A DNA stretch of 64,000 bases from an uncultured delta proteobacterium (GTDB taxonomy: Bacteria; Desulfobacterota; RBG-13-43-22). The stretch's first letter is position 1, and every line of letters begins with the position of its first letter. The stretch is from NCBI GenBank assembly GCA_963743305.1, contig CAVUPH010000017.1, positions 75,073 through 139,072 on the forward strand, in the 5' to 3' direction. The notes below the pieces were generated by a model. The model was not told the origin of the DNA and ran no database searches. It was given only the letters and a program-made list of their open reading frames with translations. Shown piece after piece: positions 985-57,670 of the stretch. A program made the translations under genes and the position numbers.

Positions 985-1049
985 GACGCGATCGGTGAGC
1001 GCGCCGCCTCTTGGAGAGGGCAGAGGAGAGAAAAGAGTGATAAACAGTC

Positions 1050-1080
1050 CGTCATGGCGAGCGAAGCGAAGCAATCTCCC
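1050..1080 (+). repeat. Half copy of a CGTC-type REP-like palindrome (CGTCATGGCGAGCGAAGCGAAGCAATCTCC)
   Basis: The same core recurs at ~5525-5597, ~25031-25140 and ~57569-57670. Confidence 0.7.
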
Positions 1081-1098
1081 GGGTCGAACTTCTGAGAT

Positions 1099-5524: not shown

Positions 5525-5597
5525 AAGCAATCTCCCGAAAGCTTTTAGCATCACCCCAGCTTGTCCGAGGGATTGCTTCGCTTCGCTCGCAATGACA
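5525..5597 (-). repeat. CGTC-type REP-like palindromic element
   Basis: AAGCAATCTCC...GGGATTGCTTCGCTTCGCTCGCAATGAC inverted arms. Confidence 0.7.
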
Positions 5598-5627
5598 GAC
5601 TATTTGAAAACGAAAAAGAGAATCGAG

Positions 5628-9932: not shown

Positions 9933-11059
9933 AGAAACAGATTCGGACGACCCCGGCGGCCAATGCTCCGGATCGTAAATCAAGGGGCAGAATACGCGAA
10001 GACGCCTCGTTCCCAGTGGCACCGCCTCACGAGAGCTTACCCGTCAGCTACGCCTCCGTTCTCGGTGAGATCAAACAACGTATCCAGGCAGAGCGGCTGC
10101 GGGTTATTATGGCCGCCAATTCGGCCATGATCATCCTGTATTGGGACATCGGTCGACTGATTTTAGATCGTCAAGAGCGTGAGAGCTGGGGCGCCAAGGT
10201 TATTGATCGGCTCTCCGCCGACCTGCGCGAAGCCTACCCGGATATGGGCGGATTATCTCCACGTAACCTCAAATATATGCGCGCTTTTGCGGCGGCCTGG
10301 CCGGACTCGTCAATTGTGCAACGGGTCGTTGCACAAATTCCCTGGAGGAGTAATATTGCCCTCCTGGACAAGTTGGATGATCCCGCCATTCGGCAATGGT
10401 ATGCCGAAAAAACAATCGAACATGTCTGGTCACAACCGGTCCTTTGCTTTCAGATAGAATCCCAACTCCATTCCCGCCAGGGCAGGGCCGTAACAAACTT
10501 CGCCGCAACCCTTCCACCCGCTGACTCGGATATGGCGGCACAAGTCTTTAAAGACCCCTACCTCTTTGACTTTCTGGGCACCGCCGATCCACGCCGCGAA
10601 CGGGAGATCGAGCAGGCCCTCATCGATCATATCCAGCGCTTTCTCCTCGAACTCGGCGCAGGCTTTGCCTTCGTCGGGAGGCAGATCCATCTTGAATTTG
10701 CGAGCAACGACTATTACCTCGATCTCCTCTTTTATCACCTGAAACTGAGATGTTACGTCGTGGTGGAACTGAAGGCCGTCCCTTTCGACCCGGGTTTTGT
10801 CGGCACCATGAACATGTATCTCTCCGCGGTGGACGACCTGTTACGACACACTGACGATAAACCCTCCATCGGACTAATTCTATGCCGTTCGAAAAATAAA
10901 CTGGTGGTGGAGTACGCTTTGCGCAATTTCAGGAAGCCAATCGGTGTTGCCGAATGGGAGACCAAAATCGTTAAGAAACTCCCAAAGGAATTCAAAGGGA
11001 GCCTTCCTACCGTAGAAGAGATTGAAGCGGAATTGACGTGGGATAGACGATTAAAATGA
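9929..11059 (+). CDS. YhcG/DUF1016 PD-(D/E)XK nuclease
   Basis: YWDIG, KDPYLFDFL, LLELGAGFAFVGRQ, DLLFYH and VVVELK. Confidence 0.92.
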   Translation: MKKQIRTTPAANAPDRKSRGRIREDASFPVAPPHESLPVSYASVLGEIKQRIQAERLRVIMAANSAMIILYWDIGRLILDRQERESWGAKVIDRLSADLREAYPDMGGLSPRNLKYMRAFAAAWPDSSIVQRVVAQIPWRSNIALLDKLDDPAIRQWYAEKTIEHVWSQPVLCFQIESQLHSRQGRAVTNFAATLPPADSDMAAQVFKDPYLFDFLGTADPRREREIEQALIDHIQRFLLELGAGFAFVGRQIHLEFASNDYYLDLLFYHLKLRCYVVVELKAVPFDPGFVGTMNMYLSAVDDLLRHTDDKPSIGLILCRSKNKLVVEYALRNFRKPIGVAEWETKIVKKLPKEFKGSLPTVEEIEAELTWDRRLK

Positions 11060-11115
11060 TCGATATAGCGGAACTGGTGGGGAAGGCCCAAGAGAACTTC
11101 GAGGAATTAGTATGA
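11056..11115 (+). CDS. 19-aa mini-ORF MIDIAELVGKAQENFEELV, a copy of the HsdM C-terminus
   Basis: ATGA overlaps with both the yhcG stop and the hsdS start; matches the HsdM end GELAAKIQENFEELGI. Confidence 0.55.
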   Translation: MIDIAELVGKAQENFEELV

Positions 11116-12251
11116 TTGGGAAAACTCTAACCATACTCTCAGACGTATGCGAGTCTATACGCTACGGCTACACGGCCTCAGCCAATCTTGATCCTTGCGG
11201 GCCGCGCTTCCTGCGCATCACTGACATTGTCCCCGATTCCCTGGACTGGGAAACGGTACCGTACTGCGAGATCGATGAAACCGACAGGGAGCGATTCGCT
11301 CTTGCGGTCGGTGACATTGTCGTTGCCAGAACGGGGGCGACTGTTGGATACGCGAAGCTCATTCGCGAACCGGTGGACGCTGTATTCGCTTCGTATTTGG
11401 TCCGCTTCCGGGTGGATACCACAAAGGCTGATCCAGCATATATTGGCAGGCTTGTCGAATCCCACGATTACAAGTCGTTCGTTAAATCCAGGATCGGCGG
11501 AGCCGCCCAACCCAACGCGAGCGCTCCGGTGCTCGGGAGCTTCGAGTTTCCCTTGCCGTCCCGGCACTCGCAGGAGCGCATCGCCGACATCCTCTCCGCC
11601 TACGACGACCTGATCGAGAACAACCGGCGTCGGATGGTGCTGTTGGAGGAGGCGGCGCGGCAGCTTTACCGGGAGTGGTTTGTCCGTCTCCGCTTTCCCG
11701 GGCATGAGCATACCCGGATTGTTGATGGCGTGCCCAAGAGATGGGAACGGATAGCATTTGAAAACGCCCTTGTCCTTCAACGTGGTTTCGATCTCCCCGT
11801 TCAGCTTAGGGAAGATGGTGATGTGCCAATTTATGGCTCGACTGGTATCCTCGGATTTCACAGTAAAGCGAAGGTTACTGGTCCAGGTGTAGTTACTGGA
11901 CGAAGCGGTACGCTTGGGGAAGTAAAGTACGTTCCGGTTGATTTCTGGCCATTGAACACATCTCTATGGGTTAAGGAGTTCAGAAGGGCCACGCCATTTT
12001 TTTCTCTATTTCTAATGCGAGAGATGGACCTAAAGAAGTATAATGGCGGAGTGTCAGTACCTACACTGGATCGGAAAACCGTCCATAAAACCCAAATTTT
12101 AATCCCTTCAAAAGACCTGCTTATGTTGTTTGACAATTTTATTAACCCGCTATTTCAGCAAGTTAACATTTTAAGCGGTCAAACCGAAAAACTAAGAACA
12201 GCCCGCGATATGCTCCTCCCTCGTTTGATGAACGGGGAGATTGTACTATAA
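11112..12251 (+). CDS. hsdS: Type I R-M specificity subunit
   Basis: Two TRDs with conserved helices QERIADILSAYDDLIENN and LRTARDMLLPRLMNGEI. Confidence 0.93.
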   Translation: MIGKTLTILSDVCESIRYGYTASANLDPCGPRFLRITDIVPDSLDWETVPYCEIDETDRERFALAVGDIVVARTGATVGYAKLIREPVDAVFASYLVRFRVDTTKADPAYIGRLVESHDYKSFVKSRIGGAAQPNASAPVLGSFEFPLPSRHSQERIADILSAYDDLIENNRRRMVLLEEAARQLYREWFVRLRFPGHEHTRIVDGVPKRWERIAFENALVLQRGFDLPVQLREDGDVPIYGSTGILGFHSKAKVTGPGVVTGRSGTLGEVKYVPVDFWPLNTSLWVKEFRRATPFFSLFLMREMDLKKYNGGVSVPTLDRKTVHKTQILIPSKDLLMLFDNFINPLFQQVNILSGQTEKLRTARDMLLPRLMNGEIVL

Positions 12252-12272
12252 CGCTGTTACTGCTTAAGAAGG

Positions 12273-13373
12273 ATGGCGTCTATGAATAACCTATACAAGC
12301 TAAAAATCGAGGGGTTCAAGTCTATAAAGAGTCAGGAGCTTGAGTTCGCACCCCTTAATGTTTTTATTGGGGGGAATGGGGCTGGCAAATCCAATCTAGT
12401 CAGCGTATTCCATTTCCTTCGGCGGATAGTCGACCAAGAGCTTCAAACATATACCGGTGAAGCAGGGGGGGCTAACGCCATACTCTACTTCGGCCGCAAG
12501 AAGACAGATAAACTCTCCATGAGAATTGAATTTCGCCCAGGCAGCGATGCGAACATATATGAGTTTGTTTTAATTCCGACGGATGATGATCGGTTTATCT
12601 TTGAGCGCGAAAATGCCTATTACTGGGCGACGGATCGGTTCGATGCCACTTACTTAGCCGATTCCTGGAAAGCTCACCGAGAGGCTCGAATTATAGAGGA
12701 GAAAAATCCGTCGCCGCCTACGTACGCGACCATCTGGAAAGCTACCGCATTTACCACTTTCATGATACCAGTCCTTCCGCTGCGGTAAAACAAACCGGTG
12801 ATGTGGCCGACAACCGGTTTTTACGACCCGATGCAGGCAATCTCGCCGCCTTCCTTTATAGGCTTCAGCAAAAACAACCTGATCATTTTGAAAATATCGA
12901 AGATACGGTAAGACAAGTGGCGCCATTTTGGGGACATTTCAAGCTGGAGACATCCCTCCTAAACCCCGATAGAAATTCGTCTGAATGGGAAGAAAAGGGG
13001 AGCGATGACCTATTTCAATGCCTCGGCACTTTCGGATGGAACCTTACGTTTTATCTGCCTATCGACTCTCCTTCTTCAGCCGACCTTGCCTTCGCTCATT
13101 CTCATCGACGAGCCGGAACTGGGGCTTCACCCGGCCGCCATCCAGGTCCTCGCCGGACTCCTCCAATCTGCGGCCACACGAACCCAATTGATTGTGGCCA
13201 CCCAGTCGGTGACCCTTATCAACCAATTACAACCGGAACACGTCTGGGTGGTGGGCCGGGAAGACGGCCAAAGTATTTTCCGCAACTTGAAGTCGGCAGA
13301 TATGTCTGAGTGGCTCGAAGATTATGGTTTGGGAGAATTGTGGGAGAAGAATATCTTTGGAGGCCGTCCTTGA
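12273..13373 (+). CDS. ABC/AAA_21-type ATPase (split by frameshifts)
   Basis: Walker A GGNGAGKSN, signature LSDGTLRF and Walker B LIDEPELGLHP across three frames. Confidence 0.85.
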
Positions 13374-14029
13374 TGAAACGCGTTCTTGTGCTTGTGGAAG
13401 GACAAACCGAGGAACGTTTTATAAAAGACGTGGTAGGGCCTCACCTTGAAGCAAAGGACATATACGCCATCCCAAAAGTCGTGACGACCAAACGAGTTAA
13501 GCAAGGGCCTGATTTCAAGGGCGGCATTACCGATTATCAGAAGGTCGAAAACGATTTGAAACGGCTTCTTGGGGATTCAGATGCGGCTCTTATCACCACC
13601 TTTATAGACTATTATGGTCTTCCCCTGGAATTCCCAGGTATGGCTACCCGTCCGATAGCCTCCCCGCTAGAGAGGGCAAAACATGTGGAGATTGAATGGA
13701 AACGTCGGATAGACCACCCTCGTTTTCTATCCTATTTAATGACCCACGAATTTGAAGCTCTTTTATTCTCCAAACCAGAAGAACTGAGTAGAGCGCTTTA
13801 TCAATCGGATTTGGGGCCAAAACTCAAAACCATCAGAGATTCATTTCCAACTCCTGAAGAAATTGACGATGATCCATTGACTGCTCCCTCGAAAAGAATA
13901 TTGCGCCTCCTCCCGGCATACCAGAAGACCGTTCATGGTCCGCTGGTAACCAGACGCATAGGTTTGGAAACCTTGCGTCGCGAATGTAGGCATTTCAATG
14001 ACTGGCTTTTAAAGCTTGAAAGTATTTAG
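13373..14029 (+). CDS. DUF4276 family (Toprim-like) protein
   Basis: LVEGQTEERF, IDYYGL, HEFEALLF and TAPSKR; coupled to the ATPase. Confidence 0.8.
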   Translation: MKRVLVLVEGQTEERFIKDVVGPHLEAKDIYAIPKVVTTKRVKQGPDFKGGITDYQKVENDLKRLLGDSDAALITTFIDYYGLPLEFPGMATRPIASPLERAKHVEIEWKRRIDHPRFLSYLMTHEFEALLFSKPEELSRALYQSDLGPKLKTIRDSFPTPEEIDDDPLTAPSKRILRLLPAYQKTVHGPLVTRRIGLETLRRECRHFNDWLLKLESI

Positions 14030-14044
14030 GATCAATAGGCTTAG

Positions 14045-17000
14045 ATGATCACCGACATCAACAGCGAAGACCGCCTGGTCCAGCAGACGTTTGCCGAGCA
14101 TCTGCACGATAAACTCGGCTGGGACAGCGTCTATGCCTGGAACCAGGAAACCTTCGGACCGAACGGCACCTTGGGGCGGACCAGTGAGCGCGAAGCGATC
14201 CTGATGCGTGATCTGCGAAGGGCGGTGGCCGACCTCAATCAGGAATTGCCGGAAACGGCCCGGGATCAGGCGATAGAAAAACTTACCCGGGTGGACTATT
14301 CCCGATCACTGTTGCAGCATAACCGGGAATTCTATGGTTTCCTCCGAAATGGCGTTCCGGTGGATTGGCGCGATACCCAAGGGGAGACGAAGCACGCCCG
14401 GGTGCAGGTCATCGATTTCCGGAATGCGGCCAATAATCGGTTTCTCGCGGTTCGGGAACTGAAATTCCAGGGAATGCGGGTCCCCCACTATAATGTCCGG
14501 GCGGACCTGGTCTGCTTTGTCAATGGCTTGCCGCTGGTTTTCATTGAACTGAAGGCAGTTTACAGGAACATCCGGCAGGGGTTCGATAATAATCTTACCT
14601 GGTACCTCGACCCGAACGTCGTTCCCCAGGCCTTTCATCACAACGTCTTTCTTATCGTCAGCAACGGCGACCGGGCCCGTTACGGATCTATCACCAGCCG
14701 CTGGGAGCACTTTGTCGAGTGGAAGCGCAATTCAGAAAAGGAAAAAGGCCGCCTGGAGGCCGAGGCCCTGCTGGAAGGGATGCTCGCCAAGGAAAATTTG
14801 CTCGATATCATTGAGAATTTTATTCTGTTTGACGACAGCCGGCCCGGCGGAACCCGTAAGATTATCGCCAGGAACCATCAGGTGCTGGGGGTGAATAACG
14901 CCGTCGCCTCGGTTCAGCGGCAGGAAGAACTTAAGGTGGAGTTTCCAATGGACCGAAGGCTTCTTTCTTATACTTATACCGTTCCTGTATCCGAGATAAA
15001 AATCGCCGCGCGAAGAAGGTAAAGGAGATGGGGCTCCGTATTGATCCTCAAAGACAGAAACCTGGAGGAACTACCCCTGGTGAAGCGGGCGCATCCGGAC
15101 CTTGGCCGGTTGGGGGTTTTCTGGCATACCCAGGGCAGCGGCAAATCCTATTCCATGGTATTCTTTACCGAGAAAGTCCGGCGGGTGGTACCGGGGAACT
15201 TCACCTTTGTCATCATGACCGACCGGGATGATCTGGATGATCAGATCTGGAGGACCTTTATCGGTTGCGGGGCGGCGGATGAGAAGAATCCGCGAGCCAA
15301 GTCCGGTGACGACCTCAAAACACTCCTTTCTGAAAACCACCGGTTTATTTTCAGCCTGATCCACAAGTTCAACCAGGAGGTGACCGAACCCTATAGCGAC
15401 CGGGACGACATCATCGTCATCTCGGACGAAGCCCACCGGACCCAGGCCGGGAAGTTTGCCCGCCATATGCGACTGGCGTTGCCGAACGCCTCTTTCATCG
15501 GCTTTACCGGCACCCCGCTGTTCAAACACGACCATCTGACCAAGCGAATATTCGGAGGGTATGTCTCGCGCTACGACTTCAAACGTTCTGAGGAGGACCA
15601 TTCCACGGTCAGGCTGGTCTACGAAAATCGGGGAGAGAAGCTGGGTATTGCCCGGCTCGACCTGAACGATCGAATCGCTTCGAAGATTGAGGAGGCGGAA
15701 CTGGATCCGGATCAGGCCGCGTTGTTGGATAAATTGCTGGGCCAGGATTATGAGGTCATAACGGCCGATGATCGACTGGACAAGCTGGCTGAGGATTTTG
15801 TCGAGCATTGCTCCACCCGGTGGGAATCCGGCAAATCGATGCTGGTTTGTATTGACAAGATCACCTGCGGCCGGATGTATCAAAGGATCAAGCCCCGCTG
15901 GGAGGCCAAACTGGCGGTTCTTAAAACCGTTATCCGGGAAAAGGAAGCGGAATTAGCCAATAGTTCGGACCCGGACGAAATACAGCGGATAGACCGGGAT
16001 CTTGAAAAACTGCGGGGACAAGTGGGTTGGATGGGGACCACCATCATCGAGTTCATCATCAGCGAAGCGCAACACGAAGTACGCGATTTTAAAAAGTGGG
16101 GGATCGATATCATTCCTCATCGGGAGGTTATAAAGACAGGTTTCCAAACGCCGGACGGTAAGCGGGTGGCCGTGGATGATGCCTTTAAAGACCCGGAGCA
16201 TCCTTTTCGAATCGCCATTGTCTGTGCCATGTGGCTGACCGGCTTTGACGTGGAATGTCTGTCCACCCTTTATATCGACAAACCCATGAAGGCCCACACC
16301 CTGATGCAGGCCATCGCCCGGGCCAACCGGGTGTATCCGGGGAAGGACTGCGGCGTGATCGTCGATTACAGCGGGATGCTCAAAAGTCTGCGGGAGGCCT
16401 TGGCCCAGTATGCCTTGGGAGACGATGAGCAGGAAGAAACAGGAGGTGAACTGGTTGCCCCGATTGAAGAACTGGTAGTGGCCCTGGTTCAGACGCTGGA
16501 GTCGGCGGAAAATCATCTCCGGTCACTAGGGTTTGAACCGAGCAAGGCTGAAAGGGGCCAAGGGATTTGACCGGATTCAGGCTCTACGCGACGCCGTCGA
16601 GGCCCTTTATTCATCGGACGAAGCCAAGCGCCGGTTTGAAATTATGGCCCGACAGGTCTTTATTCGATTTAAGGCGCTGCTGATGGAACCCAGTGCCTTT
16701 GCTTATATCGAACGACACGACAATATTGAAACGATTTACAAGAAACTGGAAGAGAAAAGAGATACGGCCGATGTGACCGAGGTTTTAAAAGAACTGCATC
16801 GGATCGTCAACGAAGCCATCCGGGCCCAGGAACCGGGGGATGATCATGCCGAAGGGCTTACCGTGGACCTGAGCCGGATCGATTTCGTCAAGTTGCGTGA
16901 CGAGTTCGCCAAAAAAATAAAACGAAAGCATACCGCCTTGCAGGACATCCGGGAGATCGTGGAAAAGAAGCTCCAGCAGATGTTGGCCCGAAATCCGCAG

Positions 17001-17466
17001 CGAATGGACTATTACAAAAAATATCAGGAGATTATCGCTGACTACAACCGAGAAAAGGACCGGGTGACCGTAGAGGAGACCTTTGCCAGGCTTTTTGATC
17101 TGGCCAACAATCTGGACGCCGAACAAAAGCGGGCGGTGCAGGAAGGATTGAGTGAGGATGAGTTGGCGCTTGTTCGATCTGCTTTTTAGAGATAATATCA
17201 GCAAAGCCAGACCGGGAAAAGCTCAAACAGGCCAGCCGGACTCTCCTGGCTTCGCTCCAGGAATTGATCAAGCCTATGCCGACCTGGACGCAAAACTCCC
17301 AGACCCAAGCGGAGGTCAAGGTCTGGTCCTCGATACCCTTTGGGAAAAACTGCCGCGGCCGCCCTTTACCGAAGAAGATGCGGAAACACTTGCAGAGCGG
17401 GTTTATGACTTTGTCTGGCAGCAGAGTGCCGGGGGTCGGTTCTTGGAAAATATGAGGGCGGCCTGA
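14045..17466 (+). CDS. hsdR: Type I restriction endonuclease R subunit (several indels)
   Basis: DLVCFVNGLPLVFIELK, WHTQGSGKS, DEAHR, GFTGTP, MWLTGFD and QAIARANR. Confidence 0.92.
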
Positions 17467-17550
17467 TCTAAACCCTGTTAGCCTTATTGGCCAATGGGTT
17501 TGAAACCGAAAATCATAGAAATGGGGTAGGTAAATGGCAACCGAGGCTAA

Positions 17551-17698
17551 GGATCTGTAAACAAATAACCTTGACAAAGCGGCCCGACAACCGTTCACCC
17601 TGAGCTTGTCGAAGGGTGAAGGATACGGCCATGCTTCGACAGGCTCAGCATGAACGGAGATATCAGCGGTATTGTACAGCTTATTTTTTGACGGGTTC
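17551..17698. mobile_element. Non-autonomous miniature element with imperfect 18 bp TIRs, TAA target duplication and an internal REP-like hairpin
   Basis: GGATCTGTAAACAAATAA versus TTATTTTTTGACGGGTTC; TAA at 17548-50 and 17699-701; internal CCGTTCACCCTGAGCTTGTCGAAG...CTTCGACAGGCTCAGCATGAACGG. Confidence 0.65.
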
Positions 17699-17759
17699 TA
17701 AGTTAAAAGAGTTGGAAAAAATTGCCGAAGAAATGAACGCTATTGACCGGACCAAGCTT

Positions 17760-17881
17760 CTGGGCAACCCGGTGGTCTTTATCGGCCCTAATAATTCAGG
17801 GAAGACCTCGGCCTTGCAGGCCCTGGCGCTCTGGGAGATCGGCCTTAAGAAATGGAATGAAAAACGTGAAGGCAAGTCGGC
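17760..17881 (+). pseudogene. Duplicated N-terminal fragment of the downstream ATPase gene
   Basis: Close match to 18561-18681 (LGNPVVFIGPNNSGKTSALQALALWEIGLKKWNEKR). Confidence 0.85.
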
Positions 17882-17913
17882 GAAGCGTGCTCCAAAAGAG
17901 GGAGGGTATTTAA

Positions 17914-18228
17914 TTGGTCAATGAAGAACTGCTAAAGATTGTCGTAAAGCGATTGGCTGATAATTTCCACCCCCAAAAAATAATCCTTTTTGGTTCCCAA
18001 GCCAAAGGAACGGCGGATGACCGCAGCGATGTTGACCTTCTGGTCATCTGTCCGATCAAAGGGTCCCGAAGGGGGAAAATGGTGGCTATGGATCGTTCCC
18101 TGCGGGGGTTGGGGTTGGCCAGGGATATCGTTCTTCTTACGCCGGAAGAGTATGAGCGGGACCGCTTTATACCGGGGACCATCGCCCGACCGGCCTCGCA
18201 AGAGGGGAGGGTTCTATATGAATCCTAG
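17914..18228 (+). CDS. Minimal nucleotidyltransferase (MNT antitoxin)
   Basis: IILFGSQAKG..SDVDLLVI motif. Confidence 0.88.
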   Translation: MVNEELLKIVVKRLADNFHPQKIILFGSQAKGTADDRSDVDLLVICPIKGSRRGKMVAMDRSLRGLGLARDIVLLTPEEYERDRFIPGTIARPASQEGRVLYES

Positions 18229-18468
18229 TGATGTTGAAATCCGCATACATATAATATTTCCAGGCTCTTGGAACTCTGCGCCGAAAAAGCAGATTGGCCG
18301 GGAACGGTTTTGGAAGCGGAGGAATTGACCCCTTACGCCATAACCACCCGCTATCCTGGAGAGGATGAAAGGGTTACGAAACAGGAGGCCTTGAGGGCGA
18401 TTTATATTTCCGAAAAGGTTCGAAAAATAATTAGAAAAGTTTTAAGAAAGGATGGATTAAATTATTAA
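18218..18468 (+). pseudogene. HEPN-domain toxin remnant (internal deletion)
   Basis: ATG 18218 overlaps the MNT end, then jumps frame to PHTHNISRLLELC...LTPYAITTRYPG; N-terminal HEPN helices are missing. Confidence 0.7.
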
Positions 18469-18503
18469 AATGCGTTCTTCCATATTTATTTAGAGGGTTT
18501 TTT

Positions 18504-20245
18504 ATGCTTACCAAATTAACCATCCATAATTTTAAGCGGTTTGGCGCGGTGGAGATCGAGCTGGGAAATCCGGTGGTCTTTATCGGCCCCAACAATTCGG
18601 GAAGACCTCGGCCTTGCAGGCCCTGGCTCTTTGGGAGATCGGTCTTAAAAAATGGAATGAAAAACGCAAAGGCAAATCGGCTCCGGAAAAGCGGCCGGGG
18701 GTGACCATCAACCGGAAAGACCTGGTCTCCATCCCCGTTCCGGATGCCAACTTGTTGTGGCGGGATCTGCACGTTCGGGATGTTCAGAAAAGTGAAGGGA
18801 AGCCGCAGACAAAAAATATCCGGATCGAGATTGTCGTGGAGGGTATCACTAACGATAAATCCTGGGTCTGTGGGTTGGAATTTGACTATGCCAACGAGGA
18901 GTCTTTTTACTGCCGCCCGCTCCGGTCAGGCGAATCGGAGGGCGAGCCGGGCCGCATGGTTATTCCGGACGAAGCCGAGTTGGTGCAAACGGCCTTTCTG
19001 CCCCCCATGTCCGGTTTGGCGGCCAATGAAACCCGTCTGGATGACGGGGCCATTAATGTCCGGGTCGGGGAAGGAAGGACAGCCGAGGTTCTGCGGAACC
19101 TTTGCCAAAAAGTTTTTGAGCGTCAGAACGGTTGCTGGGACAGGATGGTCGGGCAAATCCAGTCACTTTTCGGAGCGGACTTGGATGTCCCCCAATATAT
19201 TCCCGAACGCGGGGAAATCAAACTAAGCTACAAAGAAAATGGAAGATCCTACGACTTGTCCTCTTCCGGCAGAGGGTTGCAGCAGACCCTTCTGCTTCTG
19301 TCTTATATGTATGCCAACCGGGGGGCCGTTTTATTACTGGATGAACCCGACGCCCATCTGGAAATCCTCCGCCAGCGGCAGATTTACCAACTGCTGATCG
19401 ATGTGGCCCGGGAAAACGACAACCAGATAATCGCCGCCAGCCATTCCGAGGTGCTGCTTAATGAGGCCGCTGAGAGAGACGTGGTGGTGGCCTTTGTGGG
19501 AACCCCTCACCGGATGGATGACCGGGGCAGTCAGGTTCTGAAGGCCCTGAGGGAAATTGGGTTCGAGCATTATTATCAGGCGGAACAAACCGGATGGGTC
19601 CTTTATCTGGAAGGCTCTACGGACCTGGCCATTCTCAGGGCTTTGGCGGAAAAAATCGGCCATGAGGACGCGATTCGAGTGCTGAACAAACCATTTGTCC
19701 ACTATATCCGAAATCAGCCGCAGGAAGTCTTAAGGCATTTTCACGGCTTAAGGGAAGCCACCCCAAAGTTAATGGGTGTGGCCATTTTTGACCGGCTGGA
19801 GCAGGAAATTCCCGCTATTAATGGAGTAGAGTGCCTGGAGTGGCGGCGAAGAGAGATCGAAAATTACTTGTGCTACATAGAAACACTTTTTGAATATGCC
19901 AAGGCCACGAGCCAAGTCGATTCCATCGGCCCCCTTTTTGCCGCCGGGGAAGCCTCCCGCCGAATGAAGGCGATGGAAGAGGCCATAGAGGAAGTCACCC
20001 GGGCCATGGAGACCTTTGGCAAAGGTTCCCCTTGGGACGTTAATACCAAGGTCAGCGACGATTTTCTGGATCCCCTGTTCAGGTCCTATTTTAGGAGACT
20101 GGGGCTCTATAATGTAATGGCCAAGAAAAATTTCCATGAACTGGCTTACTTTGTCCCGGAAGATAAGATTGACCCGGAAGTGAAAGAGAAACTGGATGCC
20201 TTAGTCAAAGTGGCCAATTCAGCCAAGCCGTTTGAAAACCAATAG
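18504..20245 (+). CDS. ABC-ATPase-Toprim fusion (OLD/PARIS-like); 1-bp deletion at ~18600
   Basis: GPNNSGKT, SSSGRG and LLDEPDAHL, then YLEGSTD, IFDR and REIENYL. Confidence 0.8.
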
Positions 20246-20258
20246 AAAATATCTATTG

Positions 20259-20412
20259 ATAACCTCGCAAAAAATCAAAAAACGACTTTCTGCTCGGCGG
20301 GGGATGGCTTCCCCTCCCCCGCCATTTGAAATGAATTCAAATGGTGCCACCCCTACCCCAGCCCGGCGCTTAATCTCGCCCGGGCTGTTGACGGACTTTT
20401 TGCGAGTCCGTC
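20259..20412. mobile_element. 154 bp MITE-like element, copy 1
   Basis: TIR CTCGCAAAAA.TC / GACTTTTTGCGAG and three internal hairpins; second copy at 54001-54154. Confidence 0.75.
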
Positions 20413-20432
20413 TCTATTGACTGTTTGTGTGG

Positions 20433-22874
20433 ATGGAAAATACTGAGGATTTCAAAAAGCAACTGGATAAGGCCCTGAATGAGTGCGCTCGCCTGAAGGC
20501 TGAAAATGACCGGTTGCGCCGGAGGCTCGGTGGTATCCCGGAAGGGGAACATTTGACTCCTGAAAAGACCCTTGCAGAACCCAACCTTCCTTTCACGCCA
20601 GCGGCCTTTAAGATTACCAATGATTCTCCTCCGAAAGAAAAAATAGGCCTCTTTAAAAGTCTTTTCCGCGGCCGGGAAGATGTTTATCCGGTTCGCTGGG
20701 AGCGGAAGGATGGCCGGTCCGGGTATTCTCCGGCTTGCGTTCTCGAATGGAAAAGGCCCCTGTGCGGGAAACCGCTGGTAAAATGCGGGGACTGCCGCCA
20801 TCGAAAATTCTTGCCGGTTACTGAGGAAGTCCTCCACCACCATCTTATTGGGAAGCACACCATCGGGGTGTACCCCCTGCTTCCGGATGAAACCTGCTGG
20901 TTTCTGGCTGTCGATTTCGACCGGAAGACCTGGCAGGAAGACGCCGGGGCTTTTATGGCCACCTGCCAAAAGATGGCCATACCGGCGGCCCTGGAAAGGT
21001 CCCGCTCCGGGGAAGGGGGACATGTCTGGCTGTTCTTCCAAAGTCCGGTTTCGGCCTCCCTGGCTCGAAAATTGGGCTGCGCGATCCTGACCCGCACCCT
21101 GGAGGAACGGCATCAACTCGGCCTGGATTCCTACGATCGTTTCTTCCCCAACCAGGATACGCTGCCCAAGGGCGGATTTGGCAATCTGATCGCCCTTCCT
21201 TTGCAGTGGGGCCCCCGGGAAACGGGGAACAGTGTTTTTTTGAATCCGGATGGAGTCCCCTATCCGGACCAGTGGGTTTTCCTGTCCGGTCTCGACCGGC
21301 TCCCGGTTGAGATCGTGGAAGCACGGGTTGGTGAGGCCTCCCGGGCCGGGAAAATAATATCCGTTCGACAAATCCCGACCGATGAACAGCTCGAGGAAGA
21401 TCCTCGGCCCGATTTCCCTTCCGGAAGCAGAACGGCAAGACCCCCGGCCGGACCTTGGCCGAAACAGATCCGTCTGGTGATCAGTGATTTGATCTATATC
21501 GAAAAAGAGGGTTTGCCCCCGTCCATGCTCAACGCCTTAACCCAGTTGGCGGCCTTTCAAAATCCTGAGTTTTACCGGGCTCAGGCTATGCGCCTGCCGA
21601 TCTTTAATATTCCCCGGATCATTTGCTGCGCGGAGGATTTTCCCCAACAGATCGGCCTGCCCCGGGGATGCCTGGAAGAGGTGTTGCGTTTCTTTGAAGA
21701 TGGCGGCACCGCCGTGACAATCGATGATCGACGAAATGAGCCCACCCCGATCAGGGTTCATTTTCTCGGGGAACTCCGTCCCGATCAGGAAGAGGTGGCT
21801 AGAAACCTATTGGGCTATGAAAATGGGATCCTTTCCGCCCCCACCGCCTTTGGTAAAACGGTCATCGCGGCCTGGGTCATTGCCCAAAGGAAGGTCAGCA
21901 CGCTGGTTCTGGTCCATCGAAAACAGCTCCTGGATCAGTGGCGGGATCGATTAGCCGATTTTCTGGATCTGCCCAAAAGTGAAATCGGTCAGATCGGAGG
22001 GGGAAAAGGGCAGCCGACCGGGGTGATCGACGTGGCGGTCCTTCAAAGCCTGGTTCGAAAAGGCGTGGTTAAGGATATCATTTCCGAATATTCACAGGTT
22101 ATTGTGGACGAGTGCCATCATATCCCGGCCTTCAGCTTTGAGCAGGTCTTAAAGAAGGCCAGAGCCCGATTTGTCCTGGGCCTGACGGCTACCCCAATCC
22201 GGAAAGACGGCCACCAGCCCATACTAATGATGCAATGCGGTCCCGTACGGTCTAAGGGGCAGGCCAAAAAAAGCGTTCAGGATGATCCCTTTGAGCATGT
22301 GGTCCTTCCGCGCTTGACCGAATTCAATATACCTCCCCATAAAGATCTGACCATTCAGGAAATCTATAACGCTATGCTGTTCGATCAGGCCCGAAATGAC
22401 TTGATTTTCGATGATTTGTTAACCGCCCTGGAAGCCGGCCGATCTCCCCTTTTACTGACCGAACGAACGGAACATCTCGACCTGCTGGCCGGAAAGCTCA
22501 AAAACTTCGCCAGGAATATGATTATCTTGAAGGGCGGCATGGGGAAGAAGCAACGGACCGCCGTCAACGAACAAATGAAGTCCATCCCGGACCGGGAAGA
22601 GCGCCTGATACTGGCCACCGGCCGGTACATCGGCGAGGGGTTTGACGATGCCCGCCTGGATACGCTGTTTCTGGTCATGCCCATCTCCTGGCGGGGCACA
22701 CTGCAACAATATGTGGGACGTTTGCATCGACTCCATGACAATAAACGGGTGGTGCAGGTTTATGATTATGTGGATAAAAAAGTCCCGATGCTGATGCGGA
22801 TGTACCACAAGCGGCTGATCGGCTATAAGGCCCTTGGCTATAAATTAGAAATACCAAGTGGCCGGCAAGCTTAA
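20433..22874 (+). CDS. AEP primase-like domain (TOTE-type) fused to a superfamily II helicase
   Basis: FLAVDFD, ERSRSGEGGHVW and GNLIALPLQ; APTAFGKT, DECHH, GLTATP and QYVGRLHR. Confidence 0.85.
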   Translation: MENTEDFKKQLDKALNECARLKAENDRLRRRLGGIPEGEHLTPEKTLAEPNLPFTPAAFKITNDSPPKEKIGLFKSLFRGREDVYPVRWERKDGRSGYSPACVLEWKRPLCGKPLVKCGDCRHRKFLPVTEEVLHHHLIGKHTIGVYPLLPDETCWFLAVDFDRKTWQEDAGAFMATCQKMAIPAALERSRSGEGGHVWLFFQSPVSASLARKLGCAILTRTLEERHQLGLDSYDRFFPNQDTLPKGGFGNLIALPLQWGPRETGNSVFLNPDGVPYPDQWVFLSGLDRLPVEIVEARVGEASRAGKIISVRQIPTDEQLEEDPRPDFPSGSRTARPPAGPWPKQIRLVISDLIYIEKEGLPPSMLNALTQLAAFQNPEFYRAQAMRLPIFNIPRIICCAEDFPQQIGLPRGCLEEVLRFFEDGGTAVTIDDRRNEPTPIRVHFLGELRPDQEEVARNLLGYENGILSAPTAFGKTVIAAWVIAQRKVSTLVLVHRKQLLDQWRDRLADFLDLPKSEIGQIGGGKGQPTGVIDVAVLQSLVRKGVVKDIISEYSQVIVDECHHIPAFSFEQVLKKARARFVLGLTATPIRKDGHQPILMMQCGPVRSKGQAKKSVQDDPFEHVVLPRLTEFNIPPHKDLTIQEIYNAMLFDQARNDLIFDDLLTALEAGRSPLLLTERTEHLDLLAGKLKNFARNMIILKGGMGKKQRTAVNEQMKSIPDREERLILATGRYIGEGFDDARLDTLFLVMPISWRGTLQQYVGRLHRLHDNKRVVQVYDYVDKKVPMLMRMYHKRLIGYKALGYKLEIPSGRQA

Positions 22875-22946
22875 ATGATTCGTAGACCAGGGTTGATAGA
22901 TTCTGTCTTTATCGATATAATTATGCTGAAGAGGTACTTATTCCCT

Positions 22947-23213
22947 ATGAATTACCTGAAAGCCGCATTTTGGGACTACCCTCAGTTTACCGAGGAGGCA
23001 ACGCTCCGGGCTTGTTTGCAGGAGCGGAAGGATACCACCTTGTATTTTTGGCTAATGAGTAGATTTCTGGAATACGCTCGGGTCGTGGATACCCTGAAAT
23101 TTTTTGCGATAGACGAAATTGCCGGACAATTGTCCAGGCTGAAGCTTCGGCCCTATACCCGAATAAAATGGACCCGGATGGTCGAGATCTATGGAACCTC
23201 TTCAGGAAAATAA
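22947..23213 (+). CDS. Small putative antitoxin (FWDY motif) of an AbiE-type pair
   Basis: AAFWDY..RFLEY pattern; overlaps the nucleotidyltransferase gene. Confidence 0.55.
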   Translation: MNYLKAAFWDYPQFTEEATLRACLQERKDTTLYFWLMSRFLEYARVVDTLKFFAIDEIAGQLSRLKLRPYTRIKWTRMVEIYGTSSGK

Positions 23214-23880
23214 AGCCGGTTACGCCTCGGCCGCCCAACGGGAGGTTTTACTGAGCCTAGTGGAACACCCGACCATTCGTGATGTTTCATTTCTGACCGG
23301 CGGGACGGCCCTTTCCGTTTTTTATCTCAGTCACCGTGTATCGGATGATATCGATTTGTTTTCCGTTGAACCGATTGATTTGCCGGAGTTGGATTTTTGG
23401 ACTAAGACCCGCTGGGGGGCGCGCTGTTCCCAACTCCGGAAGAGCCCCCAATTCCTCTCCCTATTAATCGACGGGGTTAAGGTCGACCTGGTAATAGACC
23501 CTCTTTCTTTTCGAGATCCACGGCAACGATTCGAGTTCGATAGCCAGAGATCTCTTCAGGTGGACACTCTGTCCAACATTGCCTCCAATAAACTCACCGC
23601 CGTCGTGAGTAGAACGGAACCAAAAGATTATGTCGATTTGTATTTGATCCTCAAGATTTTTCCTGAATATAGGTTGGAAGGCCTTTATCAAAAAAGTCGT
23701 TTGAAAGATGCTATCTTTGATGACCCACCAACGGCTGCTTTTCAATTGGAGACCGGTGTTGCTTTTTTAAAGGAAAACCCATCTCTTAAGCCAAAGATGA
23801 TCAAGGAATTAAATTGGGAGGATCTTTTCGATTTTTATAGGCGGTTAACTCGCTGGGTCTATGACTTGGTCAAACTGTAA
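23191..23880 (+). CDS. AbiEii/AbiGii nucleotidyltransferase toxin
   Basis: LTGGTAL..HRVSDDIDLF and NKL..RTEPKDYVDLY. Confidence 0.88.
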   Translation: MEPLQENKAGYASAAQREVLLSLVEHPTIRDVSFLTGGTALSVFYLSHRVSDDIDLFSVEPIDLPELDFWTKTRWGARCSQLRKSPQFLSLLIDGVKVDLVIDPLSFRDPRQRFEFDSQRSLQVDTLSNIASNKLTAVVSRTEPKDYVDLYLILKIFPEYRLEGLYQKSRLKDAIFDDPPTAAFQLETGVAFLKENPSLKPKMIKELNWEDLFDFYRRLTRWVYDLVKL

Positions 23881-29718: not shown

Positions 29719-30345
29719 TTATTTTTGAATCAGGGGGAGTAAGATTACATAGGGGGGCAAGGCAATGTGAGCTGGAACAGCTATGATCGGGACGCCATCC
29801 GTCCCGGCCTCGAGCGCGCGTACGGGCGCTCCCGAAGTGATCATGAACGTAACGGTATCCAAGGTTGCCGAAAGGGACCGCTTGCCGGATCCGGAGGCCA
29901 CCACCGCAGAGACGCGATAGATCCCATAGTCCACGCCGGCGGTACTCAGCACCAGCAGAAAATTGCCGGAACCATCGCAAGGGACGTTCGGCGGGAGCGG
30001 AATATCATTTACCAGGATGAGGACTTGAGCGTTGGGCGGAAACCCTGCTCCCCGGAGAGTGAAAAAGCTGCCCACTTCTCCGGAGCCGTAATTGATGTTG
30101 ATCGTCCGAGTATTTCCGGTGACTACCTCCAGGTTGATCCGGTTCCCGGCCTGGTCATAGACATAACGGATGGTACCGCTGCTGCCGTAATCGGCCTTGA
30201 CCAGTTGCCCGTTCTGGTCGTAGGAGTACGTGATGGTCATCGTCGCGCTCCAGGCCGACGACGGTCTGAATACGGCGGCGGCTAAAAATAAGATGAACAA
30301 CGCTGCCCAGGCCGATGTCGTTCCGATCCTCAATATCCGATCCAT
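29719..30345 (-). CDS. Exported protein with a short YD-repeat unit and a beta-rich domain
   Basis: Signal peptide ending AWSA; YSYDQNGQL..YVYDQAGNR; C-terminal YVILLPLIQK. Confidence 0.7.
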   Translation of the reverse strand: MDRILRIGTTSAWAALFILFLAAAVFRPSSAWSATMTITYSYDQNGQLVKADYGSSGTIRYVYDQAGNRINLEVVTGNTRTININYGSGEVGSFFTLRGAGFPPNAQVLILVNDIPLPPNVPCDGSGNFLLVLSTAGVDYGIYRVSAVVASGSGKRSLSATLDTVTFMITSGAPVRALEAGTDGVPIIAVPAHIALPPYVILLPLIQK

Positions 30346-30431
30346 AGAATTATTACCTCGTGATTCTCAAGCCTTTCCTGATAGGCGTCCATCCAAGGAA
30401 ATTCCTCTGAGCATTAGCTCTCCTGTTTCTC

Positions 30432-46073: not shown

Positions 46074-48640
46074 TCAGGATATTTCTTCTTTTAATCCGGA
46101 GGCATTATTCCCAGGCTTGGAGACAATCGGGATTGACGATCCTGGGACTGGGATTAGGGGTTTCCGTTTTTATCAGCATCCATTTGGCGGTGGGCGCCTG
46201 CCTATCCTCTTTCAAAAGCACCGCCCAGGCCGTTTCCGGTCTGGCCCAATGGCAGATTATTCAAGAAGGCCGCGGTTTGGATGAAGGCCTTTTCCCGGTC
46301 ATTAAGGCCCACCCGGCTGTCCAGGCGGCCGCCCCGGTGGTAGAGCTCCAGGTCCCCCTTCAAAATCACCCCGGCCTGGTCCTCTGGATTATGGGGGTGG
46401 ATTTTTTCAATGAAGCCCAGGTTCGTACCCACGCCCCTTCGCTGACCTCGTTGCGGGAACCGGATTTCTTGTCCCTTATTCTTAGCCCCCGGGCCATCGC
46501 TTTGAGCAGGGACCTGGCCCGGCGATTAACGGTCCGACCGGGTTCATCTCTGGGCGTTTTGATCAACGGACACCCACAAACCCTTAGGGTGACCGCCTTG
46601 ATCGACCCGGAGGGTCCGGCCCGGGCACTGGGGGGCCATTTTGGGGTAATGGATATCGCCCAGGCGCAGGAATTAATGGGGAAAATCGGACGACTGGATC
46701 GCATCGATCTGGTGTTGAAGCCAGAATATCCACCGACCGCTGCGATCGAAAGTCTGCAAAAAATGCTGCCTCCCGGGGCCTCCCTCCTTCAGCCCTCAGA
46801 ACGCCAGGCGGGTACGGAACGTATGGTGCGCTCCTACCAGCTTAACCTGCTGGCCCTGAGCTTCATCGCCGTCCTGGTCAGCATGTATCTGATGTACAAT
46901 GTGACCGCACTTTCGGTGGTTCGCCGCAGGAAAGATCTGGGCATACTCCGGTCCTTGGGGATGTTGCCGAAGCAGATCCTGCATTTAATTCTTTGGGAGT
47001 CGGCCGGATACGGGCTGCTGGGGGGACTCTTGGGCATCGGAGGCGGCTATCTGCTGGCCCGGGTGATCCTGGGGACCATCAGTCAAACCATCAGCGACCT
47101 CTATGTGCTGGTGGGGGTAACGGAAATACCTTTTAGGCTGCCGGAAATGGCTTTGTTCCTGGTGGGAGCCGTTGGGGTGGCGCTGGTCTCGGCCTACGTT
47201 CCGGCTCGGCAGGCCTCGCGTTTGCAGCCCCGGGAGATCATCTCCCAGGGGCCGGGGACTCTCTCCCCACCGCCATCCCGGAAGGGAAGTTTTTTTTGGG
47301 CCGGATCGATCCTGTTGATCCTAACCGGTTTACTCCTTTTTATCCCGCCCTGGCAGGGGCTGCCCTTGGGGGGTCTGCTGGCCACCCTCACTTTGATCCT
47401 GGGATTTTCATTGTGGCTTTCCCCCGTAACCCACAAAATCCTGACCCTCATTACTCCGGCCCCAGCCAAACGGAGGAAACGCCGGAATCATCGGTATTTG
47501 GGCTATCTCTATTTTGATTATGCCTTGGATAAAATGGCGGTCTCGATGGCGGCTTTAATGACGGCCATCGCCATGCTGATCAGCGTTTCCATTATGATCA
47601 ACAGCTTCCGCCAAACGGTAGACCAATGGATTGATCAATCCATCAGCGGGGACCTGCTGGTCGGTCCGGTTTTTCCCTCCAATCAGGGCGATTTTCAGTT
47701 TTTAGAGCCGGAGGTCATTGCGGGGATCGAAAGGCGGGCGGAGGTAAAGGATATTTACTACTATCGAAGCGTTCTGACGGCTTCCCAGGGCCGGCCGATC
47801 CGCCTCTGGGCCGGTAATCTAGCGGTCATTGAGCGGTACAGTCGGTTGGCGTTCACCGCTGGAAATCCCGAAGAAATCTACCGGCAGGTCTTATCCCGGG
47901 AGGCAGTGATCCTCTCGGAGGTTTTAGCCAATCGGCTAAAGGTCGGGCCCGGGGACTCGGTTACCCTGTTAACCGCCTTTGGGCCTCACTCCTTTAGGAT
48001 CGCCGGGGTTTTTTACGATTATCGGACCGAGGGTGGCGGGGTTTGGATCGATCGGGCGGTTTTTTTAAAATGGTGGCAGGATGAAAGGGTCAACGGGGTG
48101 CGTCTTTATTTAAAGGATCCCGGCCGGCTGTCCCAAGTCCGGGAATCGTTGTTAAAGCAGTTCTCCGACCGCTATGAACTGGTGGTTATTTCTCACCGGG
48201 AGCTGCGGGAACAAATACTGCGGATTTTTGACCAGACTTTTCAAGTTACCTATGCCCTGGAGGCAATCGCCATCCTGGTGGCCTTCCTGGGCATTATCCA
48301 CACCAGTTCCATCTTGATTCTTTTCCGGGAAAAGGAGTTTGGAATTTATAAAGCGCTCGGGGCATCGCCCGGGCAGGTCCGAATAATGGTTCTCACGGAA
48401 ACCGGGCTGATGGGTTTTTTTTCGTTTCTCTGGGGTGGATTGTCCGGGACCTTATTGTCCCTCATTTTGATCCTGGTGATTAACAAGCAGTCCTTTGGCT
48501 GGACGATTCAATTGCACTGGTCATTGGGTGTTTATGGGCAGACCCTGATCCTCATCCTGATCAGTTCTGTCTTAGCCGGACTGGTCCCGGCTTCCATCGC
48601 CCTGCGAACTAAAATGGAACAGCAGATTCGGGATGAATGA
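46070..48640 (+). CDS. FtsX/MacB-like ABC permease (AttF/G type); start uncertain
   Basis: Two periplasmic plus TM repeats; MDIAQAQ, RRKDLGILRSLG and INKQSFGWT. Confidence 0.85.
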   Translation: MIRIFLLLIRRHYSQAWRQSGLTILGLGLGVSVFISIHLAVGACLSSFKSTAQAVSGLAQWQIIQEGRGLDEGLFPVIKAHPAVQAAAPVVELQVPLQNHPGLVLWIMGVDFFNEAQVRTHAPSLTSLREPDFLSLILSPRAIALSRDLARRLTVRPGSSLGVLINGHPQTLRVTALIDPEGPARALGGHFGVMDIAQAQELMGKIGRLDRIDLVLKPEYPPTAAIESLQKMLPPGASLLQPSERQAGTERMVRSYQLNLLALSFIAVLVSMYLMYNVTALSVVRRRKDLGILRSLGMLPKQILHLILWESAGYGLLGGLLGIGGGYLLARVILGTISQTISDLYVLVGVTEIPFRLPEMALFLVGAVGVALVSAYVPARQASRLQPREIISQGPGTLSPPPSRKGSFFWAGSILLILTGLLLFIPPWQGLPLGGLLATLTLILGFSLWLSPVTHKILTLITPAPAKRRKRRNHRYLGYLYFDYALDKMAVSMAALMTAIAMLISVSIMINSFRQTVDQWIDQSISGDLLVGPVFPSNQGDFQFLEPEVIAGIERRAEVKDIYYYRSVLTASQGRPIRLWAGNLAVIERYSRLAFTAGNPEEIYRQVLSREAVILSEVLANRLKVGPGDSVTLLTAFGPHSFRIAGVFYDYRTEGGGVWIDRAVFLKWWQDERVNGVRLYLKDPGRLSQVRESLLKQFSDRYELVVISHRELREQILRIFDQTFQVTYALEAIAILVAFLGIIHTSSILILFREKEFGIYKALGASPGQVRIMVLTETGLMGFFSFLWGGLSGTLLSLILILVINKQSFGWTIQLHWSLGVYGQTLILILISSVLAGLVPASIALRTKMEQQIRDE

Positions 48641-48718
48641 ACCTTTGGAAAACCCTTTGGCCGTTCCCCGCAGCTTTAGCGGATAGACCGGTGGACCCAC
48701 CCAAAAGGGAGAAGCGTC
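48641..48718 (+). repeat. Degenerate 3' fragment of the 330 nt element (copy C)
   Basis: ACCTTTGGAAAACCCTTTGGCCG...ACCCACCCAAAAGGGAGAAGCGTC. Confidence 0.65.
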
Positions 48719-54000: not shown

Positions 54001-54154
54001 ATAACCTCGCAAAAAGTCAAAAAGCGACTTCTTGCTCGGCGGGGGATGGTTCCCCCTCCCCCGCCATTTGAAGTGAATTCAAATGGTGCCACCCCTACCC
54101 CAGCCCGGTGCTTCCTCGCGCTCGGGCTGATGATGGACTTTTTGCAAGTCCATC
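54001..54154. mobile_element. 154 bp MITE-like element, copy 2
   Basis: Colinear with 20259-20412. Confidence 0.75.
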
Positions 54155-54169
54155 ATTGACCGGTGGTCT

Positions 54170-55493: not shown

Positions 55494-55819
55494 AGGTTGT
55501 TCGCCCTTTTTGGTGGGTGGCCACAATATGGTATAAAAGCCTGAAATCGGATCTCCTTGGCCTCCGGGTCTCGGCGAAAGGGTTTTCTCCCGTTCAGGCG
55601 GGACTTTTTAAGTTCAAACCCGGCCCCCATGTCATCAAATCTTCCAGGTGGCAGGGCCGACCGGGGAGGTGTCAACAGACTCGGAGTATGGGCCTGCTTT
55701 AAATAAAGTTAGTAACATAGGCCCGGATTCGAAGTCTGGAGCACCTTTGGAAAGCCCTTTCGCCGAGACCCGGAGGCCATACCGGATATAGGGGTACCCA
55801 CCCAAAAGGGCGAAGCGTC
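55494..55819 (+). ncRNA. ~330 nt structured multicopy element, copy B
   Basis: Outer IR TTCGCCCTTTT.GGTGGGT/ACCCACCCAAAAGGGCGAA; perfect 25 bp inner stem 55558-55582/55755-55779. Confidence 0.6.
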
Positions 55820-57568: not shown

Positions 57569-57670
57569 CTGTCATGGCGAGCGGAGCGAAGCAATCTCCT
57601 GGCCGAGCCTAGGGGAATCGTTTTGGCTGGAGGGAGAATTGCTTCGTTGCTCTCCGTTCTCGCCAGGACT
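57569..57670 (+). repeat. REP-like palindromic element
   Basis: GTCATGGCGAGCGGAGCGAAGCAAT...ATTGCTTCG...CTCGCCAGGAC. Confidence 0.7.

What the first reader, a model, noticed from the sequence alone, without database searches (positions are those of the whole stretch)
55494..55819. ~330 nt multicopy structured element with compensatory base changes
Seen: copies at 39488-39816 (minus) and 55494-55819 (plus), and a 3' fragment at 48641-48718. Each full copy has a ~19 bp outer IR, a perfect 25 bp inner stem and three internal hairpins. The inner stem differs between copies at three positions, all compensated (GGCCATCTGG/CCAGATGGCC versus GGCCTCCGGG/CCCGGAGGCC). An internal stem covaries (TGTTTC/GAAGCA versus TGTCATC/GGTGGCA) around a conserved loop AAATCTTCC. 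G-U pairs work on only one strand. There is no convincing ORF, and all copies lie sense to and upstream of a gene. Inference: a large structured RNA, or an ssDNA-folding non-autonomous element mobilised in trans. I cannot assign it to a family.
Basis: partly seen in the sequence, partly recalled or inferred. Interest (0 to 1): 0.75.

Follow-up and report, generated by a model that had tools for sequence, protein, structure and literature searches.

The report
ISL3-type MITE with a flipping core
This 325-base repeat is a small jumping DNA element (a MITE) that lacks its own enzyme; its 'compensated' stem is best explained by one arm being copied onto the other while the middle flips, not by a new structured RNA.

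Summary
The copies and stems are real, but the element is a MITE, not a demonstrated RNA. It runs from GG to TC/CC (55495-55819 +; 39488-39815 -). It has 24-bp imperfect terminal repeats and AT-rich target duplications, mostly 8 bp: 19 of 27 full copies have at most 1 mismatch, against 21 of 702 in a cross-copy control. A related genome has the empty site of copy A. A profile from 14 independent ISL3 ends ranks the five window ends 1, 2, 3, 8 and 17 of 127,952 positions. The ~149-nt core between the 32-bp inner arms is inverted in 6 of 27 copies, and these are not one clade (p-AU 3e-6). Orientation to genes is unbiased. Best reading: a non-autonomous ISL3-type element moved in trans, whose inner arms are homogenised and whose core is flipped by template switching or recombination. 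The cognate transposase was not found. The core is constrained in blocks and has a weak G-U bias, which remains unexplained.

The parts
55495..55819 (+). Copy A, full MITE, 325 bp
   Evidence: empty orthologous site in L011
55486..55494 (+). Left target duplication of copy A (9 bp; 8 of 9 match the right one)
   Evidence: present once at the empty site in L011
55820..55828 (+). Right target duplication of copy A
55495..55518 (+). Left terminal inverted repeat of copy A, ISL3-type
   Evidence: rank 2 of 127,952 with a profile of 14 ISL3 ends
55558..55589 (+). Left arm of the 32-bp inner inverted repeat, with a variable 4-nt window at arm positions 6-9
55590..55747 (+). Core (158 nt here, 149 nt in most copies): degenerate palindrome with conserved blocks; inverted in 6 of 27 family copies; here it carries an extra small hairpin at 55588-55603
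55748..55779 (+). Right arm of the inner inverted repeat
55796..55819 (+). Right terminal inverted repeat of copy A (ends GTC; departs from the GG start of the ISL3 ends fetched)
   Evidence: rank 8 of 127,952
39488..39815 (-). Copy B, full MITE, 328 bp, between a small desulfoferrodoxin-domain gene and a UroD-family gene
   Evidence: ends rank 1 and 3
39816..39823 (-). Left target duplication of copy B (8 bp, perfect; contains the stop codon of the upstream gene)
39480..39487 (-). Right target duplication of copy B
39561..39718 (-). Core of copy B; inner arms at 39719-39750 and about 39529-39560
48639..48718 (+). Fragment C: decayed right end (inner arm plus terminal repeat), cut at the inner arm; the same truncated fragment sits at the orthologous site in L042
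   Evidence: end rank 17

Best explanation
[quoted passage not shown] Step 1 (shown): copies insert at new intergenic AT-rich sites and duplicate 8 bp (sometimes 7 or 9) of the target. Step 2 (inferred): an ISL3-family DDE transposase encoded elsewhere recognises the 24-bp ends and moves the element in trans, probably through a circular intermediate as reported for ISL3 members. Step 3 (pattern shown, cause inferred): the body is a degenerate palindrome. Its two 32-bp inner arms, 149 nt apart, are repeatedly copied onto each other by template switching or intramolecular recombination. The same events invert the core and, when they fail, delete it. This produces the 'compensatory' changes without selection on an RNA. 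Step 4 (inferred): conserved blocks in the core and inner arms are cis sites needed for amplification (transposase or host-factor binding on double-stranded DNA), which would explain why full length is conserved.
For: Target duplications: 19 of 27 full copies have at most 1 mismatch (17 of 8 bp, 1 of 7, 1 of 9) against 21 of 702 cross-copy pairs; targets are 88% A+T. Empty sites: copy A is absent in L011 with one target copy; the L042 full copy is absent in the window and L011; the L011 derivative is absent in the window and L042; the L006 derivative is absent in L052. ISL3 link: the only IS recognised among the 55 scan loci is an ISL3 (L032 and L055, two copies of one 1378-bp element with perfect 8-bp duplications; NF033550 303.7 bits, cut-off 180), and the scan motif falls on its first base. 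A profile from 14 ends of 7 other ISL3 elements, L032 left out, ranks the five window ends 1, 2, 3, 8, 17 of 127,952. ISL3 make 8-bp duplications and may prefer AT-rich DNA (PMC3469429, passages). Arm copying: the inner IR has 49 cells changed identically on both arms against 25 on one arm (26 copies; copy B left out for an indel), with 13 types of the variable window; the outer IR has 1 two-sided against 29 one-sided (26 copies, L035 left out). Private two-sided changes at otherwise fixed positions occur in 8 of 26 copies. Inner-IR mismatch is 25 of 832 against 32 of 213 in the duplications. The core is inverted in 6 of 27 copies: 6 changes on the tree, one clade rejected, p-AU 2.8e-6. One of the six crossed over in the outer IR instead (L017), which fits a homology-driven process. 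Template switching homogenises IR arms (PMC5941160, passages) and inverts spacers (PMC8604942, start of abstract only).
Against: No cognate transposase was found: tblastn with the L032 protein hits nothing in the window or in the 42 delta-proteobacterial loci, and Pfam finds no transposase in 63 window ORFs. The right end starts GAC (read inward) and the left has G at position 5, where the ISL3 ends fetched have GG and C. End profiles of other 8-9-bp families (IS1, IS256, IS1595, IS6) were not built. The core is more constrained than a passive spacer: 49 of 149 columns invariant against at most 34 in 100 uniform-rate simulations, with changes clustered (0 of 5000 permutations as high). A weak one-strand G-U bias remains (15:4, or 15:12). 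Cell counts are not independent events, and conversion between copies could blur the tree. The duplications are A/T runs that may mutate faster than the arms.
Confidence: 0.8

Rival explanations
1. A large structured RNA (cis-regulatory or trans-acting) kept by selection on its fold.
For: Fold z-scores -12.3 and -9.8. Block conservation of the core. Ten invariant positions form a 5-bp stem. G-U vs A-C events are 15:4 at pairs whose consensus is Watson-Crick. The core folds better as RNA on one strand in 21 of 27 copies.
Against: Only two pairs, both in the perfect inner IR, exceed the simulated null (48.2 and 46.5 against a maximum of 32.4 in 100 simulations). The internal stems show no covariation. 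The core is inverted in 6 of 27 copies. Orientation to genes is unbiased. The consensus fold is better on the opposite strand (-24.3 vs -20.8), and mean z-scores differ little (-2.4 vs -2.0). Duplications and empty sites explain the copy number.
Confidence: 0.07
2. A MITE moved by another DDE family that makes 8-9-bp duplications (IS256/Mutator-like, IS1, IS1595, IS6; family traits recalled, from no call).
For: The right end departs from the GG start of the ISL3 ends fetched. No ISL3 transposase lies near any copy. Duplication length varies from 7 to 9.
Against: The independent ISL3 end profile picks the element ends out of the whole window. The scan motif landed on the first base of an ISL3 and on no other recognised IS.
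Confidence: 0.08
3. The inner arms are recombination sites for a dedicated invertase, the variable 4-nt window is the overlap that must match between partners, and the MITE carries a mobile phase-variation switch.
For: The variable window is matched between arms in 103 of 104 cells at positions 6-9, between conserved blocks. Inversion recurs; 5 of 6 events lie in the inner IR. The outer IR is not homogenised.
Against: One inversion crossed over in the outer IR (L017). Two-sided changes also hit the conserved arm positions in 8 copies. No sigma-70-type promoter was found inside copy A. Core orientation is not linked to gene direction (8 vs 11, p 0.65). Many copies are deleted at the inner stem, as expected of an unstable IR.
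Confidence: 0.08
4. An ssDNA element moved by a HUH enzyme (IS200/IS605-like, REP/RAYT-like or IS91-like).
For: Many hairpins; strong DNA folds on both strands.
Against: These systems do not duplicate the target (own knowledge), whereas this element does, with empty sites to prove it. No such enzyme was found among 63 window ORFs.
Confidence: 0.02

Closest known systems
ISL3 family insertion sequences (L032/L055 here; ISRta1- and ISAtc1-like elements fetched)
   Same: End motif, about 24-bp imperfect terminal repeats, 8-bp AT-rich target duplication (PMC3469429 passages; ISPpu12a 24/21 IR and 8-bp DR in PMC4133298 passages).
   Different: No transposase; 325 bp; right end starts GAC; nested 32-bp inner IR and an invertible core.
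Prokaryotic MITEs: Chunjie (Geobacter), TIME, Correia, ERIC, bcr1
   Same: Short, multicopy, intergenic, with terminal repeats and direct repeats, stable predicted folds and truncated copies. Compensatory changes are reported for bcr1 and inversion for Correia (PMC10969869, PMC3184786, PMC4133298; passages).
   Different: Chunjie is 178-235 bp with 21-bp TIRs and 9-bp DRs and is A+T rich (its sequence was not compared); TIME is Tn3-derived with 5-6-bp DRs. In the passages read, none is ISL3-derived and none has a core flipping between internal arms.
Template-switch correction of inverted repeats
   Same: Arm homogenisation, multi-base two-sided changes, spacer inversion (PMC5941160 passages; PMC8604942 start of abstract).
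   Different: The spacer here is 149 nt, longer than the 70-bp limit used in PMC5941160, so recombination between the arms may contribute.

Membership tests
MITE (prokaryotic) | Short (<500 bp), multicopy, no transposase | tested here: met
   27 full copies of 302-332 bp, 74-99.7% identical, no conserved ORF
MITE (prokaryotic) | Terminal inverted repeats | tested here: met
   24-bp imperfect ends; positions 6-24 match in 465 of 494 cells
MITE (prokaryotic) | Target-site duplication | tested here: met
   19 of 27 with at most 1 mismatch vs 21 of 702 control
MITE (prokaryotic) | Filled and empty orthologous sites | tested here: met
   four sites
MITE (prokaryotic) | Mobilised in trans by a cognate transposase | not testable with these tools
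   needs a transposition assay; no partner found in the DNA held
ISL3-derived element | ISL3-type end sequence | tested here: met
   ranks 1, 2, 3, 8, 17 of 127,952; right end deviant at positions 2 and 4
ISL3-derived element | 8-bp AT-rich duplication | tested here: met
   17 of 19 clear duplications are 8 bp; 88% A+T
ISL3-derived element | Autonomous ISL3 with the same ends in the host | tested here: inconclusive
   none in the window or in 42 host loci; whole host genomes were not searchable after the single scan
ISL3-derived element | Better fit to ISL3 than to other 8-9-bp families | not tested
   no end profiles were built for IS1, IS256, IS1595 or IS6
Structured ncRNA | Match to an Rfam family | tested here: not met
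Structured ncRNA | Significant covariation outside the perfect IR | tested here: not met
Structured ncRNA | Strand-specific fold (G-U bias) | tested here: inconclusive
   15:4 or 15:12; consensus fold better on the other strand
Structured ncRNA | Discrete transcript | not testable with these tools
   no expression data
HUH-mobilised ssDNA element | No target duplication (recalled trait) | tested here: not met
   duplications present
Site-specific invertible switch | Recurrent inversion between fixed inverted repeats | tested here: met
   6 of 27, not one clade; 5 in the inner IR, 1 in the outer
Site-specific invertible switch | Dedicated recombinase and both states in one population | not testable with these tools
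   needs raw long reads and genetics

The most novel reading that the evidence does not exclude
The MITE carries a functional cargo. Its constrained 149-nt core folds on one strand (a small RNA, or an ssDNA signal used during copy-out transposition), and it is switched on and off by inversion between the 32-bp inner arms, whose variable window works as a pairing code unique to each copy. That would make it a mobile, self-contained phase-variation module spread by an ISL3 transposase.
Probability: 0.1. Interest if true: 0.7.

Novelty: new member of a known kind. Interest (0 to 1): 0.32.

Why it matters
As it stands it is a new MITE family with two useful traits. First, it ties a MITE to ISL3, a family whose mechanism was described as undetermined in PMC3469429 (2012); the conserved inner blocks are a ready map of candidate cis sites. 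Second, it is a natural record of arm-to-arm copying over a 149-nt spacer, and a caution for RNA discovery: perfect 'compensation' in a long stem can come from DNA copying. Insertions sit in promoter and intercistronic DNA (copy A ends 12 bp before a -35-like box), so a co-transcribed 32-bp stem could alter neighbouring transcripts, as reported for Correia and ERIC (PMC10969869 passages); that is untested here.

Tried and rejected
Rfam by gathering score and by E-value: nothing real. blastn of copy A against plasmids and phages: no match; the 36-base left end gave 4 chance-level plasmid matches. tblastn for an ISL3 partner in the window and 55 loci: only L032 and L055. Of the 13 scan loci outside the three delta-proteobacterial genomes, L041 holds a true right end, L032 and L055 are ISL3, L010 looks like a lone ISL3-type end, and the other 9 do not match the element profile and are taken as chance. 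One search used a mis-registered structure and is discarded; replace it. L061 was left out of the ISL3 profile because its ends were not found, and L032 because the scan pattern had selected it. Left out of the 27-copy set: truncated copies, five internal-deletion derivatives with both ends (71-140 bp), the 236-bp L049, a near-full copy cut by the edge of L025, and duplicates in overlapping loci. A fixed distance to -35 boxes was not evident by eye in the flanks and was not tested further. Literature searches for an ISL3-derived MITE or a MITE with an invertible core: 11 papers listed, one of them searched by term, no such element in the passages shown; nothing relevant or no papers. The library lacks most subscription papers and ISfinder was not available, so absence from print is not shown. 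No supplements were read. Metagenome and viral contig collections stayed unchecked. Protein-homologue, fold and complex tools were not used, since no element protein exists.

Full report
Observation. The two full copies and the fragment exist (77% over 351 aligned bases, E 1e-74) and fold far better than shuffles (z -12.3, -9.8). The outer 19-bp IR, the perfect 25-bp inner stem and its three compensated differences are as described. Rfam gives nothing. Pfam finds no transposase in 63 window ORFs.

Ends. This puts the ends at 55495-55819 and 39488-39815.

Family. One exact-pattern scan of the genome collection gave 55 loci, 42 of them in three uncultured delta-proteobacterial genomes. They yield 25 full copies, 27 with the window's two, of 302-332 bp and 74-99.7% identity, plus many truncated and deleted forms. 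The scan finds only copies with an exact motif, so these are lower bounds. In 19 of 27 copies the flanks match with at most one mismatch (17 of 8 bp), against 21 of 702 cross-copy pairs; targets are 88% A+T. Orthologous regions show four filled/empty pairs, including copy A itself, which is absent in L011 where the target occurs once. Mobility with target duplication is therefore shown.

Which transposase. The only IS recognised among the scan hits is a 1378-bp ISL3 (L032, L055), with the motif on its first base and perfect 8-bp duplications. To avoid circularity I fetched 8 other ISL3 regions, found both ends in 7, and built a profile without L032. It ranks the five element ends in the window 1, 2, 3, 8 and 17 of 127,952 positions. 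ISL3 make 8-bp duplications and may prefer AT-rich DNA (PMC3469429, passages); they are listed among families with circular intermediates (bioRxiv 10.1101/2023.06.07.543989, passages). Against: no ISL3 gene lies in the host loci held, the right end departs from the GG start, and other families' ends were not scored.

The compensation. The inner IR is 32 bp. In 26 copies (copy B left out for an indel) 49 cells are changed alike on both arms and 25 on one arm; arms within a copy are 97% alike, against 89% between copies. Arm positions 6-9 vary most, with transversions, yet mismatch in 1 of 104 cells. Eight copies carry private two-sided changes at otherwise fixed positions, and a diverged copy in L025 has a three-base block changed on both arms. 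The outer IR has 1 two-sided change against 29 one-sided. The core between the arms is inverted in 6 of 27 copies; these need 6 changes on the tree and are rejected as one clade (p-AU 2.8e-6). One of them crossed over in the outer IR. Many truncated copies break at the inner stem. Homogenised arms, flipped spacer and deletions together are what template switching or recombination between IR arms gives (PMC5941160, passages; PMC8604942, start of abstract). Cells are not independent events, so the p-values overstate the case.

The RNA test. With all cores turned the same way, only two column pairs exceed the maximum of 100 tree simulations, both in the inner IR. RNAalifold's covariation term is -0.11. 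Copies lie in all orientations to genes (gene calls from a simple codon model). So the RNA reading is not supported.

What is left open. The core is not a neutral spacer: 49 of 149 columns are invariant against at most 34 under uniform rates, in blocks. It is itself a degenerate palindrome (34 of 59 mirror positions identical; 1 of 2000 shuffles as high), and conservation correlates between mirror positions on opposite strands (rho 0.33, p 0.01), which suits double-stranded binding sites. A G-U over A-C excess on one strand (15:4, p 0.02; 15:12 with the terminal pair; stems chosen after seeing the data) keeps a single-strand role possible. The shorter derivatives with both ends were each seen once while full length is conserved, which hints that the core is needed to amplify; this is inference from a partial sample.

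Verdict. A new family of ISL3-type MITE, about 325 bp, with nested inverted repeats and a core that flips. MITE status is shown; the ISL3 partner and the copying mechanism are inferred. Searches found no report of an ISL3-derived MITE or of a MITE with an invertible core, within a library that lacks most subscription papers. Novelty: new member of a known kind. Interest 0.32.

Noticed in passing
window 20259-20412 and 54001-54158; also L012, L024, L028, L034, L036: A second repeat of about 154 nt (90% identical copies, several hairpins), absent at the orthologous site in L042; probably another mobile element.
   Followed up: partly
window 1042-1082, 5559-5605, 57569-57608: Three REP-like palindromic repeats, also in L007 and L025; the label REP-like is recalled, from no call.
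   Followed up: no
window 48639-48718 vs L042 5940-6022: The same truncated fragment sits at the orthologous site, but the L042 copy is close to the family consensus while the window copy differs at many positions; this suggests conversion between copies or uneven decay. L011 has a different palindromic repeat at this site.
   Followed up: partly
L005 5704-6022 and L052 5721-6022: Two copies in the same intergenic region of two genomes, with different target duplications and both with an inverted core; either independent insertions at a hot spot or a local hop.
   Followed up: partly
window 55588-55603; L030, L044, L006: An optional small G+C hairpin at the same place at the start of the core in 3 of 27 full copies and one derivative; in copy A it is followed by a T run and scores as a terminator-like site.
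   Followed up: partly
L041 6001-6047: A true right end of the element in a contig binned as Chloroflexia: transfer across phyla or misbinning.
   Followed up: no
L032 6001-7378, L056 113-1502: ISL3 elements whose transposase frame appears to begin in another frame upstream of an A run, which suggests a programmed frameshift.
   Followed up: no
window 7793-23880: A defence-like island: type I restriction-modification genes (some split), AAA/AbiEii-type ATPases with a duplicated start (17760-17881 and 18561-18681), a TOTE primase-helicase and an AbiEii nucleotidyltransferase.
   Followed up: no
window 29719-33782 (-) and 62515-63894 (-): RHS-repeat proteins, and a tyrosine recombinase with two SAM-like stretches at the window edge; no link to the element was seen.
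   Followed up: no
window 39817-40080 (-): An 87-aa protein with a Lys/Ala/Pro-rich start and a desulfoferrodoxin N-terminal domain; its stop codon lies inside the target duplication of copy B.
   Followed up: partly
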